Source of the DNA: an uncultured bacterium | GTDB lineage: Bacteria > Omnitrophota > Omnitrophia > Omnitrophales > Abzuiibacteriaceae | Assembly (NCBI GenBank): GCA_964387845.1 | Contig: CAYLXA010000001.1 | Span: forward strand, 192,001 to 256,000 | Length of the DNA stretch: 64,000 nucleotides | Reading direction: 5' to 3' | Part shown: positions 321 to 20,939 of the stretch, piece after piece | Numbering within the stretch: the first letter of the stretch is position 1 | Layout: every line of letters starts with the position of its first letter | Made by a program: the position numbers and the translations under genes | The notes under the pieces: model-generated | What the model saw: the letters and a program-made list of their open reading frames with translations, nothing else | The model's database searches: none | Told to the model about the DNA's origin: nothing

Positions 321-828
321 AATTTGCTTTACCGAGCGCTATTTTTTTCTGAATGTTCCAACTGCTGGTATGAAGATGACAGTAAGCAATCGCAAGCGCA
401 TCCGCCGCATCGGGCAGCGGCAATTCTTTCATTTTGAGGACCTGCTTGACCATAAATTGAATTTGCTCTTTCGACGCCCTGCCGTTGCCGCAAATTGATT
501 CCTTGATCCGGTTCGGCATATATTCCGAAACGGGAATGTTGTGCTCCATCGCGGCCAGCATCGCGATCGCACGCGCTTCGCCGATTTTCACGGCAGCTTT
601 GAAATCCTTGCTAAAAAAGACGCTTTCAATCGCAACGGTTTCGGGCCGGTAAATGGAGAAAACTTCCTTTAAACCGCCGTAAATCATCCGCAAACGCTCG
701 GCCAACGGCTTTTTTTCGCCGGCTTCGATTGTTTCATGATGAATGGCCGTGATCATGCCGGATGCGGATTTTTCGACAATGCCAACGCCTGTTCGGATGG
801 TTCCCGGGTCGACTCCTGCGACGCGCAT
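313..828 (-). CDS. ruvC: Crossover junction endodeoxyribonuclease RuvC
   Basis: 171 aa; MRVAGVDPGTIRTGVGIVE N-terminus, the RNase H-like RuvC pattern; located between yebC and ruvA. Confidence 0.9.
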   Translation of the reverse strand: MRVAGVDPGTIRTGVGIVEKSASGMITAIHHETIEAGEKKPLAERLRMIYGGLKEVFSIYRPETVAIESVFFSKDFKAAVKIGEARAIAMLAAMEHNIPVSEYMPNRIKESICGNGRASKEQIQFMVKQVLKMKELPLPDAADALAIAYCHLHTSSWNIQKKIALGKANYV

Positions 829-16760: not shown

Positions 16761-18575
16761 ATGACAACCGCCGCAACGGACGATAATTTTTTGGCGAAAG
16801 GCGTCACATGGAATTTGGCCGACTTGTACGCTTCCCCGAATGATCCAAAGATTGAAAAAGATTTGAAGCTTGCCGAATCAAAATCGATTGATTTCGAAAA
16901 GAAATATAAACCGCTGTTCAAAAAAATTGCCGCTGATTTTCCGATTTCAGAACTTCTTTCCGATTACAAAGAAATTGTGACCCTGATGACTAAGCTCGGG
17001 GTTTACTCGCATCTGGCGTTTGCCGAACAAACCAACGCGCCCGGCATCGGCTCATTTCTGCAAAAAATCCGTGTCGCGCTCACCGACATCCAGTCTCACT
17101 TGCTTTTTTTTGACGTTTGTTGGAACCAGCTCGATCAAAAAACTGCGGAAATGCTCATGCAGAATCCGAAAGTAAAAGCCGACGTCCATTATCTTGAAAG
17201 AATGCGGGCTTTTGCACCTTACACACTAAGTGAAAACGAAGAAAAAATCATGGCCGTGAAATCCAATACCAGCGGCTCGGCTTTCTCGCGGTTGTTTGAT
17301 GAAATTATGAACAACATTCCGTTTTATATTGAAGAAAACGGAAAAAAGGTCAAAAAAAGCGAAGCCGAAGTGCTTTCGCTTTTTCATTCCAAGAACCGAG
17401 AAGAACGAAAACGCGCATCCGACAGTTTGGCGGAAGGCCTGAATGCCAACACGCACATCCTGACGTACATTTACAACATGATTTTGGCCGATCACCGCTC
17501 AAGCCTCAAAATCCGAAATTATAAACACCCGATGGATTCCATGAATTTGTCGAATGAAATCAGCTTTGAGATGGTTTCCAATTTAATCAAAACGGTCAAA
17601 AGCGCTTATCCGATTGCGCATCGTTATTACAATTTGAAAAGAAAATTGATCGGCCTGAGCGAACTTTACGATTATGACCGCTACGCGCCGATTGACACCG
17701 CCGAAGAAAAAATTGGCTTCGACAACTGCCAGAAAATCGTACTTTCGGGATATTATGAATTTTCTGAAGAAGTCGGAAAAATCGCAGAAGAATTCTTCAC
17801 AAAGCGCTGGATTGACGCCGAAATCCGGCAAGGCAAGCAAGGCGGCGGATTTTGCGCGCAAACAACACCCGACCTTCATCCCTATATTTTGGTCAATTAC
17901 ACCGGCAGCGCACGCGATGTGATGACCGTCGCGCACGAGCTCGGACACGGGCTTCATCAGTATTTGGCCGGAAAGCGTGTCGGAATCCTGCAGTCGGACG
18001 CGCCGCTTACGATGGCCGAAACGGCGTCTGTTTTTGGCGAAATGCTGATTTTTGAGAAAATCCTAAGTGCTGAAAAGGATCCTAAAAAGCGGCTTGCGCT
18101 CCTTTGCGGCAAAATCGACGATAACTTTGCGACGGTTTACCGACAGATTTGCATGACCGATTTTGAACTCATGAGCCACGAAACCGGTTTGAAACAAGGC
18201 GAGCTTTCAAGCGATCAGTTGAGTGACTTTTGGATCAAAGCTAACGCAGAATTTTACGGAAAAAGCGTCATTTTAACGGACAACTACCGCCACGGCTGGA
18301 AATACATTCCTCACTTCGTTCATTCGCCGTTTTACTGCTACGCTTATTCTTTCGCGCAGCTTTTCGTGCTGACTTTGTTCCAAAAATACAAACAAGATCA
18401 AAAGTCATTCATCCCGAAATATTTGGAAATGCTCTCACTCGGCGGGTCAAAAAAACCGGAAGAAATCGCGGACATTGCGGGATTAAATCTGAGCGATCCC
18501 AACTTTTTTAAAGCCGGCATTCAACTCTTGGACAAGCTGGTCAGCCAGGCCGAAGCGCTTGCCTCAGCGAATTGA
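16761..18575 (+). CDS. pepF: M3-family oligoendopeptidase F
   Basis: HELGHGLH zinc-binding motif and overall M3B length (604 aa). Confidence 0.85.
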   Translation: MTTAATDDNFLAKGVTWNLADLYASPNDPKIEKDLKLAESKSIDFEKKYKPLFKKIAADFPISELLSDYKEIVTLMTKLGVYSHLAFAEQTNAPGIGSFLQKIRVALTDIQSHLLFFDVCWNQLDQKTAEMLMQNPKVKADVHYLERMRAFAPYTLSENEEKIMAVKSNTSGSAFSRLFDEIMNNIPFYIEENGKKVKKSEAEVLSLFHSKNREERKRASDSLAEGLNANTHILTYIYNMILADHRSSLKIRNYKHPMDSMNLSNEISFEMVSNLIKTVKSAYPIAHRYYNLKRKLIGLSELYDYDRYAPIDTAEEKIGFDNCQKIVLSGYYEFSEEVGKIAEEFFTKRWIDAEIRQGKQGGGFCAQTTPDLHPYILVNYTGSARDVMTVAHELGHGLHQYLAGKRVGILQSDAPLTMAETASVFGEMLIFEKILSAEKDPKKRLALLCGKIDDNFATVYRQICMTDFELMSHETGLKQGELSSDQLSDFWIKANAEFYGKSVILTDNYRHGWKYIPHFVHSPFYCYAYSFAQLFVLTLFQKYKQDQKSFIPKYLEMLSLGGSKKPEEIADIAGLNLSDPNFFKAGIQLLDKLVSQAEALASAN

Positions 18576-19025
18576 AGCAGAAACATTCTGTCCGATTATC
18601 ATCCGGTCGTCTTCGATATCCAAATCAAACTCTGCAAAATCGATAAACGCGTTTTCAATCGGAATCCCGACGGCCCTCTCATCATCTTCGGTCCATTCGC
18701 CGAGCGCTTTTAAAACCTCAACATCCGCTTCGATTTGAGATTCCAACGAAATGGTTTTCTGTAAAACTAACTTTTCGCTGGATGCCGGTGCTTGTGTCAA
18801 ATTCGGCCATTGCCAAATCAACAAGCCGGCTGCTAATACCAAAGCAACGCTGAACACAACAGCGCCGGTGCCGAATGCCGGCATTCCTCCTTTTGATTTC
18901 AGAATCTCCTTCTCAACGGAATCTGAAAAATGATGCAGCGTACTTTCGGGAACTTTCTGATCCCGAAACTGCTTCAGGTTTTTCATCCACGATTCGTCCA
19001 TCTGGTTAAATGAATCTTCTTTCAT
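18564..19025 (-). CDS. Putative anti-sigma factor (single-pass membrane protein)
   Basis: Immediately downstream of and overlapping the ECF sigma gene; cytoplasmic N-terminus, one TM (AVVFSVALVLAAGLLIW), periplasmic C-terminus. Confidence 0.5.
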   Translation of the reverse strand: MKEDSFNQMDESWMKNLKQFRDQKVPESTLHHFSDSVEKEILKSKGGMPAFGTGAVVFSVALVLAAGLLIWQWPNLTQAPASSEKLVLQKTISLESQIEADVEVLKALGEWTEDDERAVGIPIENAFIDFAEFDLDIEDDRMIIGQNVSASIR

Positions 19026-19669
19026 AACCGCCCCCCTTCCATTTCCAATATTCCCGCCAACTTTTCACGCATTTTCTGTCCCGCCTGCCACAAATGCGCT
19101 TTCACGGCACCTTCACTCAATTCCATGCTTTCGGCAATTTCCAAAAGACTCAAACCTTCCAAATACCGGAGTGCAAATGCGCTGCGCTGTTGAAAAGGCA
19201 GGGTTTCAAGCGCCGCAAAGATCGCCGACTGAATTTCCTGATTCATGACTGTTCTTAATGCGCTTGGAGCCGAAGACGGCGCCTGATCAAGCGGGTTTGC
19301 CACTTCACCCTTCTCATTCGTGAAACTTGCCGCAATTGGCGGCTGTTTTTGTGCTCTCCGTTTCCGGAGAAAATCTTTGCAGCTATTCATCAAAATCCGG
19401 TACAGCCATGTCGAAAACTTGCTGCTGCCTTTAAACTGCGGAAGATTTTGGTACACTTTCACGAATGATTCTTGCGCCACATCGCGCGCATCTTCAAGAT
19501 TGCCCAGAAACGAAAATGCCGCGTGAACGGCGCGTTCTTGATGAGCCTTCACCAGCTCACCGAACGCTTTAACATCTCCGCCGCGTGCTTTTTCGATTAA
19601 TTCCTTTTCAATCGAAGCCTGCGTTTTAAGTTCTGGCATTCTTCTCTCTCCGGGCCTTCTTTTTTTCAA
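19022..19669 (-). CDS. ECF-type RNA polymerase sigma-70 factor; start is probably the internal MPELK at ~19639
   Basis: Region 2 (FSTWLYRILMNSCKDFLR) and region 4 (LSLLEIAESMELSEGAVKAHL) motifs. Confidence 0.85.
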   Translation of the reverse strand: MKKRRPGERRMPELKTQASIEKELIEKARGGDVKAFGELVKAHQERAVHAAFSFLGNLEDARDVAQESFVKVYQNLPQFKGSSKFSTWLYRILMNSCKDFLRKRRAQKQPPIAASFTNEKGEVANPLDQAPSSAPSALRTVMNQEIQSAIFAALETLPFQQRSAFALRYLEGLSLLEIAESMELSEGAVKAHLWQAGQKMREKLAGILEMEGGRL

Positions 19670-20285
19670 AATGGTTATTCAAACGCGGATGATTTTCCTT
19701 AAATTGCCTGACCCGGTCAGGATTGTTTTGTTTCCATTCTGCGAACTGTTGCCGTTTTTCCCGTTTCATTTGTTCAAACTTTTCGGGATTTTCTTCCTTC
19801 ATCCTCTTCCACTCTTCGCGCTTTTGCTGCCATTTCTGCTGTTTCTCCGCAAATTTCGGATGTTCCTGTAAAAATTTCTGATAGCGTTCCGGATTTTCTG
19901 ATTTCCAGTGCTCGAACTTCGCGCGGCGCTCCTTCATCATTCCGCGGAATTTTTCCGGATTCTCCTCTTTTAATTGCTGGAGTTTTTCTTTCCGCTCGGA
20001 AATAAACTTTTCCTTCATTTGTTCGTATTTTTCAGGATCGCTCTGCTTCAAGTTTTCCATCCGCTGACGAATCCCGTCTTTACGCTCCAGCGCAAGCCGC
20101 TTGAATTCCTCCGGATTTTCTTCCCGGAGCTGTTTCCATTTTTGAATCCTGGCCTGGATTTCTTCCTGACTTAACTCAGATTGAGAACCAGTTTCGGCCG
20201 ACACGGGCGGCGCAAATAACCCGGCGGTAAAACCAATCAACATCACGAGCGGTATTGCAGCTTGTGTAAAATGTTTGCGATTCAT
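19626..20285 (-). CDS. Secreted, highly charged repetitive protein with iterated (E/Q)NPE(K/R)(F/Y) motifs
   Basis: Signal peptide, then at least seven ENPEEF/DPEKY/ENPEKF/ENPERY/EHPKF/ENPEKF/NNPDRV units spaced ~20-25 aa apart; first gene of the sigma/anti-sigma operon. Confidence 0.5.
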   Translation of the reverse strand: MNRKHFTQAAIPLVMLIGFTAGLFAPPVSAETGSQSELSQEEIQARIQKWKQLREENPEEFKRLALERKDGIRQRMENLKQSDPEKYEQMKEKFISERKEKLQQLKEENPEKFRGMMKERRAKFEHWKSENPERYQKFLQEHPKFAEKQQKWQQKREEWKRMKEENPEKFEQMKREKRQQFAEWKQNNPDRVRQFKENHPRLNNHFEKKKARREKNART

Positions 20286-20426
20286 GGGTATCTCCTGTTT
20301 GCATTTTCTGATAAAAGTAAGCCTTTTTCAATCCTGCTAACTTAGACGCCAAACCGCTTAAAAGGTTTAACTGCAAATATTAGGTGTTTTGTGATAAGCT
20401 AGCCCCATATCAACAAGGAGAAAACA

Positions 20427-20939
20427 ATGGAACGTAAAGGTGAAATTACATTTAAAGGAAACCCACTAACCCTTTTAGGCAATACGCCCAAAGTCGGCGA
20501 TACGGCTCCGGATTTTACGGCCGTCAACGGTGCTTTGCAGCCTGCGAAATTGTCTGATTTTAAAGGCCAAACGGTCGTGATCAGTGCAGTCCCTTCGCTG
20601 GATACTCCAGTTTGTGAAATTCAAACCAAGAAATTCAATCAGGAAGCCGCGGGCCTCAACGCCAAAATCCTAACAGTCAGCATGGATTTGCCGTTTGCAC
20701 AAAAGCGGTTTTGCGATGCGCACAGCATTCAAAATGTTACGGTCGTTTCTGATTACAAAGACCACGATTTTGCGAATAAATACGGTCTCTTAATCAAGGA
20801 ACTCGGGCTCATTGCAAGAGCCGTTTTGGTTGTGAATTCCAAAGGCAAAATCACGCACGCGGAAATCGTTAAAGAAGTCACGCAGGAACCGAATTACGGA
20901 GCAGCGCTCGGCAAAGTTAAAGAAGCAGTCGCCGCTTAA
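20427..20939 (+). CDS. tpx: Thiol peroxidase
   Basis: Full-length Tpx family match; peroxidatic Cys in SAVPSLDTPVCEIQ. Confidence 0.9.
   Translation: MERKGEITFKGNPLTLLGNTPKVGDTAPDFTAVNGALQPAKLSDFKGQTVVISAVPSLDTPVCEIQTKKFNQEAAGLNAKILTVSMDLPFAQKRFCDAHSIQNVTVVSDYKDHDFANKYGLLIKELGLIARAVLVVNSKGKITHAEIVKEVTQEPNYGAALGKVKEAVAA

What the first reader, a model, noticed from the sequence alone, without database searches (positions are those of the whole stretch)
18564..20285. ECF sigma/anti-sigma operon led by a secreted, highly charged ENPEKF-repeat protein
The first gene of the three-gene operon encodes a signal-peptide protein made of (E/Q)NPE(K/R)(F/Y)-containing ~22-aa helical repeats rich in K/E/R/Q/W. 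Its stop overlaps the ECF sigma gene. Periplasmic repeat proteins co-transcribed with an ECF sigma and a single-pass anti-sigma are candidates for an envelope-stress sensor/chaperone component (Spy/CpxP-like logic) but the repeat itself is not one I recognise.
Basis: partly seen in the sequence, partly recalled or inferred. Interest (0 to 1): 0.5.

Follow-up and report, generated by a model that had tools for sequence, protein, structure and literature searches.

The report
Basic repeat protein heading ECF operon
A three-gene stress-signalling operon (secreted repeat protein, alternative sigma factor, membrane anti-sigma factor) is real and conserved across the uncultured phylum Omnitrophota, and its first gene belongs to an unnamed protein family that probably acts in the periplasm as a partner of the anti-sigma factor.

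Summary
On the minus strand, 20285..18564 holds three translationally coupled genes. The first encodes a Sec-secreted, all-helical, very basic protein (mature net +14, 48% charged) built from Pro-punctuated 22/11-residue units. The second is an RpoE-like ECF sigma factor. The third is a single-pass membrane protein with a short cytoplasmic head and an acidic outer tail (net -12).

The repeat protein matches no Pfam or NCBIfam family above threshold, has no PDB relative by sequence or fold, and carries no name in any source. It is not a Spy/CpxP homologue. It does define a family of 373 clusters at 50% identity, almost all from Omnitrophota and PVC-group MAGs. In 50 of 52 evaluable loci the family gene sits directly upstream of an ECF sigma gene. 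In 46 of 58 loci it is preceded by an RpoE-type promoter (TAAACCTTTT-N12/13-CGTCTAAT).

Related modules that lack this family carry other basic secreted helical proteins (DUF3106, or Metal_resist/LTXXQ-like) just after an acidic-tailed anti-sigma.

Best reading: a new accessory periplasmic component that binds the anti-sigma tail and feeds back on sigma release, with RseB/CpxP/CnrX-like logic. Binding and stress responsiveness are inferred, not shown. I rate it a new variant of a known kind, of moderate interest.

The parts
20360..20370 (-). -35-like element TTAAACCTTTT of an RpoE-type (ECF) promoter
   Evidence: Conserved upstream of the family gene in 46 of 58 loci and identical in close relatives L068 and L070. 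Resembles the E. coli sigmaE -35 element GGAACTTTT (PMC1312014).
20342..20349 (-). -10-like element GCGTCTAA of the same promoter; there are 15 nt between AAACC and CGTCTA
   Evidence: It is the only exact AAACC-N15-18-CGTCTA site in the 64-kb window (0.06 expected). Compare the sigmaE -10 element (T/C)GGTCAAAA. Promoter activity was not tested.
20292..20295 (-). GGAG ribosome-binding site, 6 nt before the ATG of the repeat gene
   Evidence: Read directly from the sequence. It is conserved in L068 and L070.
20196..20285 (-). Sec-type signal peptide (residues 1-30, predicted cleavage VSA|ET)
   Evidence: Sequence features. The A30-E31 pair is invariant or nearly invariant in family alignments. 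AF2 pLDDT is below 50 for residues 1-36.
19626..20195 (-). Mature NPEKF-repeat protein: 189 aa, net +14, pI 9.8, nine helices broken at each [N/D/H]-P. The end coordinate includes the stop codon.
   Evidence: The family has 373 representatives at 50% identity. No named family and no known fold.
19022..19639 (-). ECF (group IV) sigma factor, 205 aa, RpoE/AlgU/SigW-like. The mechanical ORF extends to TTG 19669.
   Evidence: Pfam and NCBIfam. Best PDB matches are 8z6g (an RNA polymerase sigma factor), AlgU 6in7, RpoE 1or7 and SigW 5wuq. Orthologues share 33-53% identity. The start is supported by L068 and L070.
18564..19025 (-). Putative anti-sigma factor, 153 aa. It has a cytoplasmic head of about 50 aa (two predicted helices, no zf-HC2), one TM segment (roughly residues 50-75) and an acidic extracytoplasmic tail (net -12, pI 4.05) carrying the conserved E[IV]xxLKxLGxWTE[ED]DE motif.
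   Evidence: Counterparts in other clades carry zf-HC2 PF13490 above threshold. A 100% identical protein, P0160, exists in NCBI/Logan.

Best explanation
The locus is an autoregulated RpoE-like ECF sigma/anti-sigma switch with a third, previously unnamed component. An ECF-type promoter drives one transcript that encodes three proteins: (1) a Sec-exported, strongly basic, all-helical repeat protein, (2) the sigma factor, and (3) a single-pass anti-sigma factor whose short outer tail is an acidic amphipathic segment.

Proposed mechanism:
- The basic repeat protein docks in the periplasm onto the acidic tail of the anti-sigma factor and sets the tail's stability or conformation. RseB does this for RseA, CpxP for CpxA and CnrX for CnrY.
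- An envelope signal titrates the repeat protein away or alters it. Candidates are polyanionic or amphipathic envelope material, or misfolded proteins.
- The anti-sigma factor then releases sigma.
- Sigma re-transcribes the operon, and newly made repeat protein closes a feedback loop.

Shown: gene structure, secretion signal, repeat architecture, family-wide synteny, the conserved promoter, and the opposite charges of the two extracytoplasmic parts.

Inferred: physical binding, the direction of regulation, the nature of the signal, and the anti-sigma activity of gene 3.
For: 1. **Obligate linkage.** 50 of 52 evaluable family loci have an ECF sigma gene immediately downstream on the same strand, despite unrelated flanking genes.
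2. **Conserved promoter.** An RpoE-type promoter precedes the repeat gene, not the sigma gene, in 46 of 58 loci. Across 949 kb of loci (both strands) the motif has only 66 matches in total.
3. **Translational coupling.** A 14-nt overlap and a 4-nt overlap are conserved in relatives. This is typical of subunits made in a fixed ratio.
4. **Opposite charges.** The mature protein is net +14, and most homologues are positive. The third-gene tail is negative (-1 to -30) in every locus where a single-pass third gene could be called, and -4 or below in all but one truncated case.
5. **Third gene as anti-sigma.** It carries zf-HC2 (PF13490, above the gathering score) in other clades of the same module.
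6. **Same architecture with other protein families.** Rep-less modules with the same promoter and acidic-tailed anti-sigma factors are followed by secreted basic helical proteins. These are DUF3106 (E 4e-26 and 3e-17; net +20 and +18) or Metal_resist/LTXXQ-like proteins. ECF281 and ECF290 have a PF13801 protein at +2 (PMC7826278).
7. **Precedent.** RseB is encoded in the rpoE operon and binds the periplasmic domain of RseA (PMC8103513).
8. **Helix surface pattern.** Each helix has a narrow hydrophobic stripe flanked by K/R, with D/E on the opposite face. This suits binding of an acidic amphipathic helix.
Against: - No interaction was tested.
- Acidic tails also occur on anti-sigma factors of modules that lack this family, so the tail did not evolve specifically for this protein.
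- A few homologues are net neutral or negative. Many carry long, variable low-complexity tails, which suggests a bulk physicochemical role rather than a specific docking role.
- Two family members (L056, L059) have no adjacent sigma gene.
- The window's third gene matches no anti-sigma family, and its AF2 model is poor (pLDDT 49).
- Being first in the operon and probably abundant fits an effector equally well.
Confidence: 0.45

Rival explanations
1. The repeat protein is an output of the system, not a regulator. In this reading it is an abundant periplasmic protectant or holdase induced by the sigma factor (Spy-like or Skp-like in role), and it sits first in the operon only so that it is expressed strongly.
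For: - It is first in the operon, directly behind the ECF promoter.
- It has extreme charge (48% charged residues).
- The family has highly variable C-terminal low-complexity tails, (D/E)RRED(V/I)RD and G-rich.
- Two paralogues stand alone without a sigma gene.
- Spy and CpxP are themselves stress-induced periplasmic helical proteins (established knowledge).
Against: - Linkage to sigma/anti-sigma is near-obligate (50/52) with overlapping start and stop codons. Pure effectors are usually scattered around the regulon.
- There is no similarity to any chaperone family or fold.
- The hydrophobic surface is very small for a holdase.
Confidence: 0.3
2. The repeat protein is a lipid or polyanion sensor built from apolipoprotein-like, Pro-punctuated 11/22-mer amphipathic helices. 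In this reading it binds LPS or phospholipid that has gone astray in the periplasm and thereby releases the anti-sigma tail. This is a specific version of the best explanation, modelled on LPS sensing by RseB.
For: - The 22/11-residue periodicity is punctuated by Pro.
- K/R residues flank the hydrophobic stripe and D/E lie opposite, a class-A-like arrangement.
- 2 of 24 family members hit Pfam Apolipoprotein PF01442 (best E 1.2e-6), 1 hits ApoLp-III and 2 hit Gp-FAR-1.
- RseB is proposed to be displaced from RseA by LPS (PMC8103513).
Against: - Hydrophobic moments are not above shuffled controls, and the nonpolar faces are narrow.
- The window protein itself does not hit the apolipoprotein model.
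- The Pfam hits may reflect composition and periodicity only.
- No lipid-binding test was possible.
Confidence: 0.15
3. The system is a CnrX-like metal sensor. In this reading the repeat protein binds a metal ion in the periplasm and signals allosterically through a short CnrY-like anti-sigma factor.
For: - The anti-sigma head is short (about 50 aa, two predicted helices), like class II anti-sigma domains (class definition from PMC8103513).
- Sister modules carry Metal_resist PF13801-like proteins.
- One His (H142 of the HPK motif) is invariant in the family.
Against: - Only one His is invariant, there is no Cys, and no recognisable metal site is present.
- There is no PF13801 or LTXXQ hit.
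- There is no similarity to the CnrH/CnrY entry beyond the sigma factor itself.
- No metal efflux genes are nearby.
Confidence: 0.06

Closest known systems
RpoE-RseA-RseB (E. coli) / AlgU-MucA-MucB
   Same: - The sigma factor's best solved relatives include AlgU and RpoE.
- The inferred promoter, TAAACCTTTT...CGTCTAA, closely resembles the sigmaE consensus GGAACTTTT-16-TCAAA.
- The operon is autoregulated.
- A soluble periplasmic protein is encoded in the same operon as a single-pass anti-sigma factor.
   Different: - No RseA, RseB or RseC homology was found.
- The sigma factor scores below the RpoE equivalog cutoff (122.5 against 236).
- The accessory gene comes first in the operon rather than after the anti-sigma gene.
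- The accessory protein is an all-helical basic repeat protein, which RseB is not known to be.
CnrY-CnrX-CnrH (Cupriavidus metallidurans), and ECF281/ECF290-type modules with a PF13801 'heavy-metal resistance' protein at +2
   Same: - A short anti-sigma factor with a minimal cytoplasmic head and a short outer tail.
- A helical periplasmic partner encoded in the same ECF operon.
   Different: - The window protein has no LTXXQ motif and no PF13801/PF07813 match.
- It has no fold match.
- It is soluble after signal-peptide cleavage.
- No metal site is evident.
DUF3106 (PF11304) proteins: secreted, basic, W-x-x-L-x-P-E-E-K/R repeat proteins
   Same: - Found right after acidic-tailed anti-sigma factors in modules with the same promoter type (L143, L108).
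- Same composition, signal peptide and helix-Pro-helix repeat style.
- hhalign probability is 84% and 55%, aligning LKKWKEMSPEE with LKKLKEENPEE.
   Different: - None of 24 family members hits PF11304 at E<=0.01.
- The motif register differs (E-E-N-P-E-K-F against L-x-P-E-E-K).
- The gene lies upstream of sigma instead of downstream of the anti-sigma gene.
- DUF3106 itself has no known function.
Spy / CpxP (LTXXQ family)
   Same: Small, basic, helical periplasmic proteins tied to an envelope-stress circuit and induced by that same circuit. CpxP binds an acidic sensor domain (established knowledge).
   Different: No sequence or fold relationship was detected. Spy and CpxP belong to two-component (Cpx/Bae) systems, not to an ECF operon.

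Membership tests
ECF (group IV) sigma-70 factors | Only sigma-2 and sigma-4 domains, about 200 aa | tested here: met
   Pfam Sigma70_r2 1.5e-18, Sigma70_r4_2 7.7e-14, Sigma70_ECF 1.3e-8. TIGR02937 scores 115.4 bits against a cutoff of 42.9.
ECF (group IV) sigma-70 factors | Autoregulatory promoter with AAC in the -35 element and CGT in the -10 element upstream of its own operon | tested here: met
   At sequence level only. TAAACCTTTT-N12/13-CGTCTAAT is conserved in 46 of 58 loci. Transcription from it was not tested.
RpoE / ECF02 (RpoE-RseABC) | Equivalog-level similarity to RpoE | tested here: not met
   TIGR02939 scores 122.5 bits against a cutoff of 236.15.
RpoE / ECF02 (RpoE-RseABC) | RseA, RseB and RseC encoded downstream | tested here: not met
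   Neither flanking protein hits any Rse/Muc family in Pfam or NCBIfam at E<=1.
Class I anti-sigma factors (zf-HC2 / ASD-I) | N-terminal anti-sigma domain of about 80-90 aa, often with H-x3-C-x2-C | tested here: not met
   The window protein has a cytoplasmic head of about 50 aa, no Cys/His motif and no Pfam hit. Counterparts in other clades (L021, L024, L032, L046, L055) do carry PF13490 above threshold.
Class II anti-sigma factors (CnrY/NepR-like) | Minimal two-helix cytoplasmic sigma-binding segment | tested here: inconclusive
   AF2 predicts helices at 6-21 and 27-43, but at pLDDT of about 50. A profile search of the PDB finds no anti-sigma chain.
Spy/CpxP (LTXXQ, PF07813) and Metal_resist (PF13801) | LTXXQ motifs, a Pfam match and a hooked-hairpin helical fold | tested here: not met
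RseB/MucB | Sequence match to the MucB_RseB domains | tested here: not met
   No Pfam or NCBIfam hit. The AF2 model is entirely helical.
DUF3106 (PF11304) | Pfam match above the gathering score | tested here: inconclusive
   No HMMER hit in 24 members. However, hhalign against two bona fide DUF3106 proteins gives probability 84% (E 7e-6) and 55% over one or two repeat units. Compositional bias is possible.
DUF3135 (PF11333) | Pfam match above the gathering score | tested here: not met
   The window protein scores 20.5 bits against a cutoff of 22.7, covering only profile positions 6-32 of 81. Weak hits occur in 13 of 24 members.
Exchangeable apolipoproteins (PF01442) | Pfam match; Pro-punctuated 11/22-mer class A amphipathic helices | tested here: not met
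   The window protein does not hit, and only 2 of 24 members do. The 22/11 periodicity and charge arrangement resemble this class, but hydrophobic moments are not above shuffled controls.
Sec-exported proteins | N-terminal n-h-c signal peptide with a small-x-small cleavage site and no lipobox | tested here: met
   By inspection and alignment only; no predictor was available. Evidence: R3/K4, a hydrophobic core at residues 9-25, VSA|E, and the A-E pair conserved family-wide.

The most novel reading that the evidence does not exclude
The NPEKF-repeat family is a new class of periplasmic co-regulator with a fold not seen in solved structures, characteristic of the PVC-group phylum Omnitrophota. 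Together with DUF3106 and the LTXXQ/Metal_resist proteins it reveals a general, unrecognised design rule for ECF switches: a basic, helical, secreted 'clamp' protein pairs electrostatically with a short acidic amphipathic tail on the anti-sigma factor. This pairing replaces the large sensor domains and the RseB-type partners of the textbook systems.
Probability: 0.25. Interest if true: 0.65.

Novelty: new variant of a known kind. Interest (0 to 1): 0.45.

Why it matters
[quoted passage not shown] How minimal anti-sigma factors with very short outer tails sense anything is poorly understood.
- This locus defines a sizeable, unnamed protein family (373 clusters at 50% identity). The family is tied almost obligately to one such switch in a phylum without cultured model organisms.
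- The family points to a recurring pairing of a basic helical periplasmic protein with an acidic anti-sigma tail. DUF3106 and LTXXQ-type proteins show the same pairing.
- If the pairing is a real binding interface, it gives uncharacterised families a testable function. It would also provide a compact, orthogonal three-part switch for synthetic biology.
- If the protein is only a stress-induced periplasmic protectant, the finding is a routine family annotation.

Tried and rejected
1. **Spy/CpxP/LTXXQ, RseB, Skp or any named family.** Rejected by Pfam and NCBIfam scans of the window protein and of 24 relatives.
3. **PDB sequence and profile searches.** For the repeat family and for the third gene these gave only chance-level hits.
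AF2 of the anti-sigma factor alone gave a poor model (pLDDT 49).
5. **Regulon inference.**
   - Only one promoter site exists in the 64-kb window.
   - The metagenome-wide motif scan showed that the motif is a generic RpoE-like promoter, also found before ECF sigma genes and small secreted proteins of other lineages. It says nothing about this sigma's regulon, but it did uncover the sister architectures.
6. **The search for related loci with the 24-sequence alignment.** It failed for lack of a conserved stretch. The 8-sequence alignment worked.
7. **Source genome.** The window's own anti-sigma factor (P0160) is in NCBI on a 409-kb contig, but no gene record could be retrieved. The window's organism is therefore inferred from relatives only.
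8. **DNA tandem repeats.** None found.
9. **Literature.** Nothing on Omnitrophota ECF systems, DUF3135 or DUF3106 function. The supplement of the ECF classification paper is not held.
10. **Acidic tail as specific to repeat-protein modules.** Rejected, because rep-less modules also have acidic tails.


Full report
**1. What is there**

*Gene 1 (20285..19626, 219 aa).*
- It starts with a typical Sec signal peptide: MNRKHFTQAAIPLVMLIGFTAGLFAPPVSA|ET.
- The mature chain has 189 residues, 48% of them charged, with net charge +14 and pI 9.8.
- All eight prolines of the mature chain lie in [N/D/H]-P motifs: ENPEEF, SDPEKY, ENPEKF, ENPERY, EHPKF, ENPEKF, NNPDRV, NHPRL. They are spaced 26, 26, 22, 11, 24, 22 and 11 residues apart.
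- The strict motif occurs six times against 0.011 expected from shuffles.
- Residues ~97-146 and ~153-201 are an internal duplication (43% identity, E 3e-14).
- There is no repeat at DNA level.
- AF2 gives a confident all-helical model (mean pLDDT 83; 144 residues at 90 or above; pTM 0.52). The helices break at every NP.

*Gene 2.*
- It is an ECF sigma factor.
- Its likely start is ATG 19639, which overlaps the end of gene 1 by 14 nt. Syntenic relatives show the same overlap and a length of 203-205 aa.

*Gene 3 (19025..18564, 153 aa).*
- It overlaps gene 2 by ATGA.
- It has one TM segment.
- It has a cytoplasmic head of about 50 residues.
- Its outer tail has net charge -12 and pI 4.05.

**2. 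It is a conserved module, not a chance arrangement**

*Family size.* The word-indexed search found only seven relatives at 28-46% identity. An exhaustive HMMER profile search found 373 cluster representatives at E<=1e-3 and 262 at E<=1e-10. None carries a name in any source.

*Taxonomy.* A scan of one genome per species returned 58 loci:
- 32 labelled Omnitrophota/Omnitrophica
- 14 labelled 'uncultured Planctomycetia/Planctomycetales' MAGs
- 7 unclassified
- 1 PVC-group
- a few others

*Synteny.* I searched all loci with local HMMs. Of 60 distinct family loci, 52 have enough downstream DNA to evaluate. In 50 of those 52 an ECF sigma gene follows immediately on the same strand, although the flanking genes differ.

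*Third gene.* It is almost always a single-pass protein whose extracytoplasmic tail is acidic, net -1 to -30 and -4 or below in all but one truncated case. In several clades it carries the zf-HC2 anti-sigma hallmark above Pfam's threshold. In the window's clade the head is short and lacks that motif. The tail motif E[IV]xxLKxLGxWTEEDE is nonetheless conserved.

*Close relatives.* L068 and L070 (repeat protein 60-62% identical, same neighbours) conserve every NP motif and the aromatic positions.

**3. Promoter**

Aligning the upstream regions revealed TTAAACCTTT-N13/14-GCGTCTAA.
- A relaxed pattern finds it upstream of the repeat gene in 46 of 58 loci. There are only 66 matches in all 949 kb of loci, counting both strands.
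- It is the only such site in the window.
- It is identical in L068 and L070.
- It closely resembles the E. coli sigmaE consensus, GGAACTTTT and (T/C)GGTCAAAA with a 16-nt spacer (PMC1312014). This fits the sigma factor's best solved relatives, which include AlgU, RpoE and SigW.
- I conclude that the repeat gene is the first cistron of an autoregulated ECF operon. This is a sequence-level inference; no transcription data exist.

**4. What the repeat protein is not**

- No Pfam or NCBIfam family passes threshold. DUF3135 scores 20.5 bits against 22.7, over 27 residues only. Among 24 relatives, 13 show that same weak DUF3135 hit and 2 hit the apolipoprotein model.
- No LTXXQ, Metal_resist, RseB or OmpH signal appears.
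- PDB sequence and profile searches give nothing.
- The protein is therefore not a Spy/CpxP homologue. On the present model, its fold has no solved counterpart.

**5. Context from sister systems**

A metagenome scan for the strict promoter motif showed that the motif is a generic RpoE-like promoter. Of 121 sites, 11 precede a repeat-family gene, about 17 precede ECF sigma genes of other lineages, and many precede other small secreted proteins. This gives no regulon information.

The scan did expose modules that lack the repeat family:
- L143 and L108/L166 have sigma, then a zf-HC2 anti-sigma factor with a short acidic tail, then a secreted DUF3106 protein. The DUF3106 matches are E 4e-26 and 3e-17, and the proteins are net +20 and +18.
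- L179, L163 and L092 have Metal_resist/LTXXQ-like secreted basic proteins in that same position.

The ECF classification paper records a conserved PF13801 protein at +2 in groups ECF281 and ECF290 (PMC7826278). The combination 'ECF sigma + acidic-tailed single-pass anti-sigma + basic secreted helical repeat protein' therefore recurs with at least three different protein families. The window's family is the unnamed one, and it is unusual in being placed first.

hhalign gives a motif-level similarity to DUF3106 (probability 84% and 55%). This is suggestive but inconclusive.

**6. Mechanism**

The best-supported model is an accessory periplasmic regulator that binds the acidic tail of the anti-sigma factor.

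Support:
- the near-obligate linkage and translational coupling
- the shared autoregulated promoter
- the family-wide opposite charges
- a helix surface pattern with a narrow hydrophobic stripe flanked by K/R
- precedent from RseB-RseA and the class II CnrY system (PMC8103513)

Against:
- acidic tails also occur without this family
- some homologues are not basic
- many carry long low-complexity tails
- two paralogues stand alone
- no interaction could be computed

The main rival is a stress-induced periplasmic protectant or chaperone. A lipid- or polyanion-sensing variant and a metal-sensing variant cannot be excluded.

**7. Verdict**

The logic is plausible, but there is no homology to Spy/CpxP, and stress responsiveness is untested.
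- Novelty: a new variant of a known kind, namely an ECF sigma/anti-sigma switch with a new, phylum-characteristic accessory family.
- Interest is moderate.

Noticed in passing
L010-L034 and others (for example L019 3743-5167, L016 3968-4990); sequences printed: Many family members end in long low-complexity tails. These are made of (D/E)RRED(V/I)RD units repeated up to dozens of times, followed by GVRDHGxGxGxG and Gly/Arg-rich stretches. The window protein lacks such a tail. A separate secreted protein made almost only of similar DNR(E/D)IRHD units follows an ECF-type promoter in L110.
   Followed up: no
P0021 (294 aa): One database protein looks like a repeat protein fused at its C-terminus to a sigma region-4-like segment (…LPKMQKLCFVLKHQNGLSNAEISQTLSRSISTVKVHLFRAVNNL…). 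It is probably a frameshift or gene-calling artefact across the overlapping stop and start codons. It was not checked.
   Followed up: no
L056 3794-5008 (CP070807.1, complete Omnitrophota chromosome) and L059 2667-3644: These two family members have no adjacent sigma gene. L056 is a 404-aa variant with extra hydrophobic V-F-E-(T/S)-L-(P/S)-E-E-E inserts and is followed by a secreted 428-aa protein. L059 is followed by a DEAD-box helicase-like gene.
   Followed up: partly
L143 7034-7285: In a DUF3106-type sister module, a small secreted and strongly acidic protein (83 aa, net -15) sits between the anti-sigma gene and the DUF3106 gene. It resembles the anti-sigma tail (…ENLDILESIEMLQDINMYEDY…). 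It may be a free decoy of the tail.
   Followed up: no
L088, L089, L135, L164, L178, L171: Another recurrent small secreted basic helical protein directly follows the same promoter motif in several metagenomic contigs (…RQAEQQARINQGVRSGELTPEEARGLRTEQKLVRITKRAMKADG…RERRVLNRQLNRTSRDIAREKH…). Its family was not identified.
   Followed up: no
window 18564-18575: The 3' ends of the anti-sigma gene (minus strand) and the convergent M3-family oligoendopeptidase gene (16761..18575, plus strand) overlap by 12 nt. No intrinsic terminator lies between them. The same convergent neighbour is present in L068 and L070.
   Followed up: partly
window 20286-20426: The ECF-type promoter lies in a 141-nt divergent intergenic region shared with a thiol peroxidase (Tpx/Redoxin) gene at 20427..20939. 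The arrangement is conserved in the close relatives L068 and L070 but not in more distant family loci.
   Followed up: partly
window 618-641 (minus strand): A second, weaker match to the relaxed promoter pattern (GAAACCGTTGCGATTGAAAGCGTCTTTTTT) lies near the window edge. It ends in a T-run and has no evaluable downstream gene. It is probably a chance match or a terminator.
   Followed up: no
window 19626-20285 versus the protein collection: The window's anti-sigma protein is in the collection at 100% identity (P0160, on a 409-kb NCBI contig). The exact 219-aa repeat protein is not, and the word-indexed search missed the 60-62% identical relatives in L068 and L070. This suggests a different start call in the source annotation and shows the limits of word-based search on low-complexity sequence.
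   Followed up: partly
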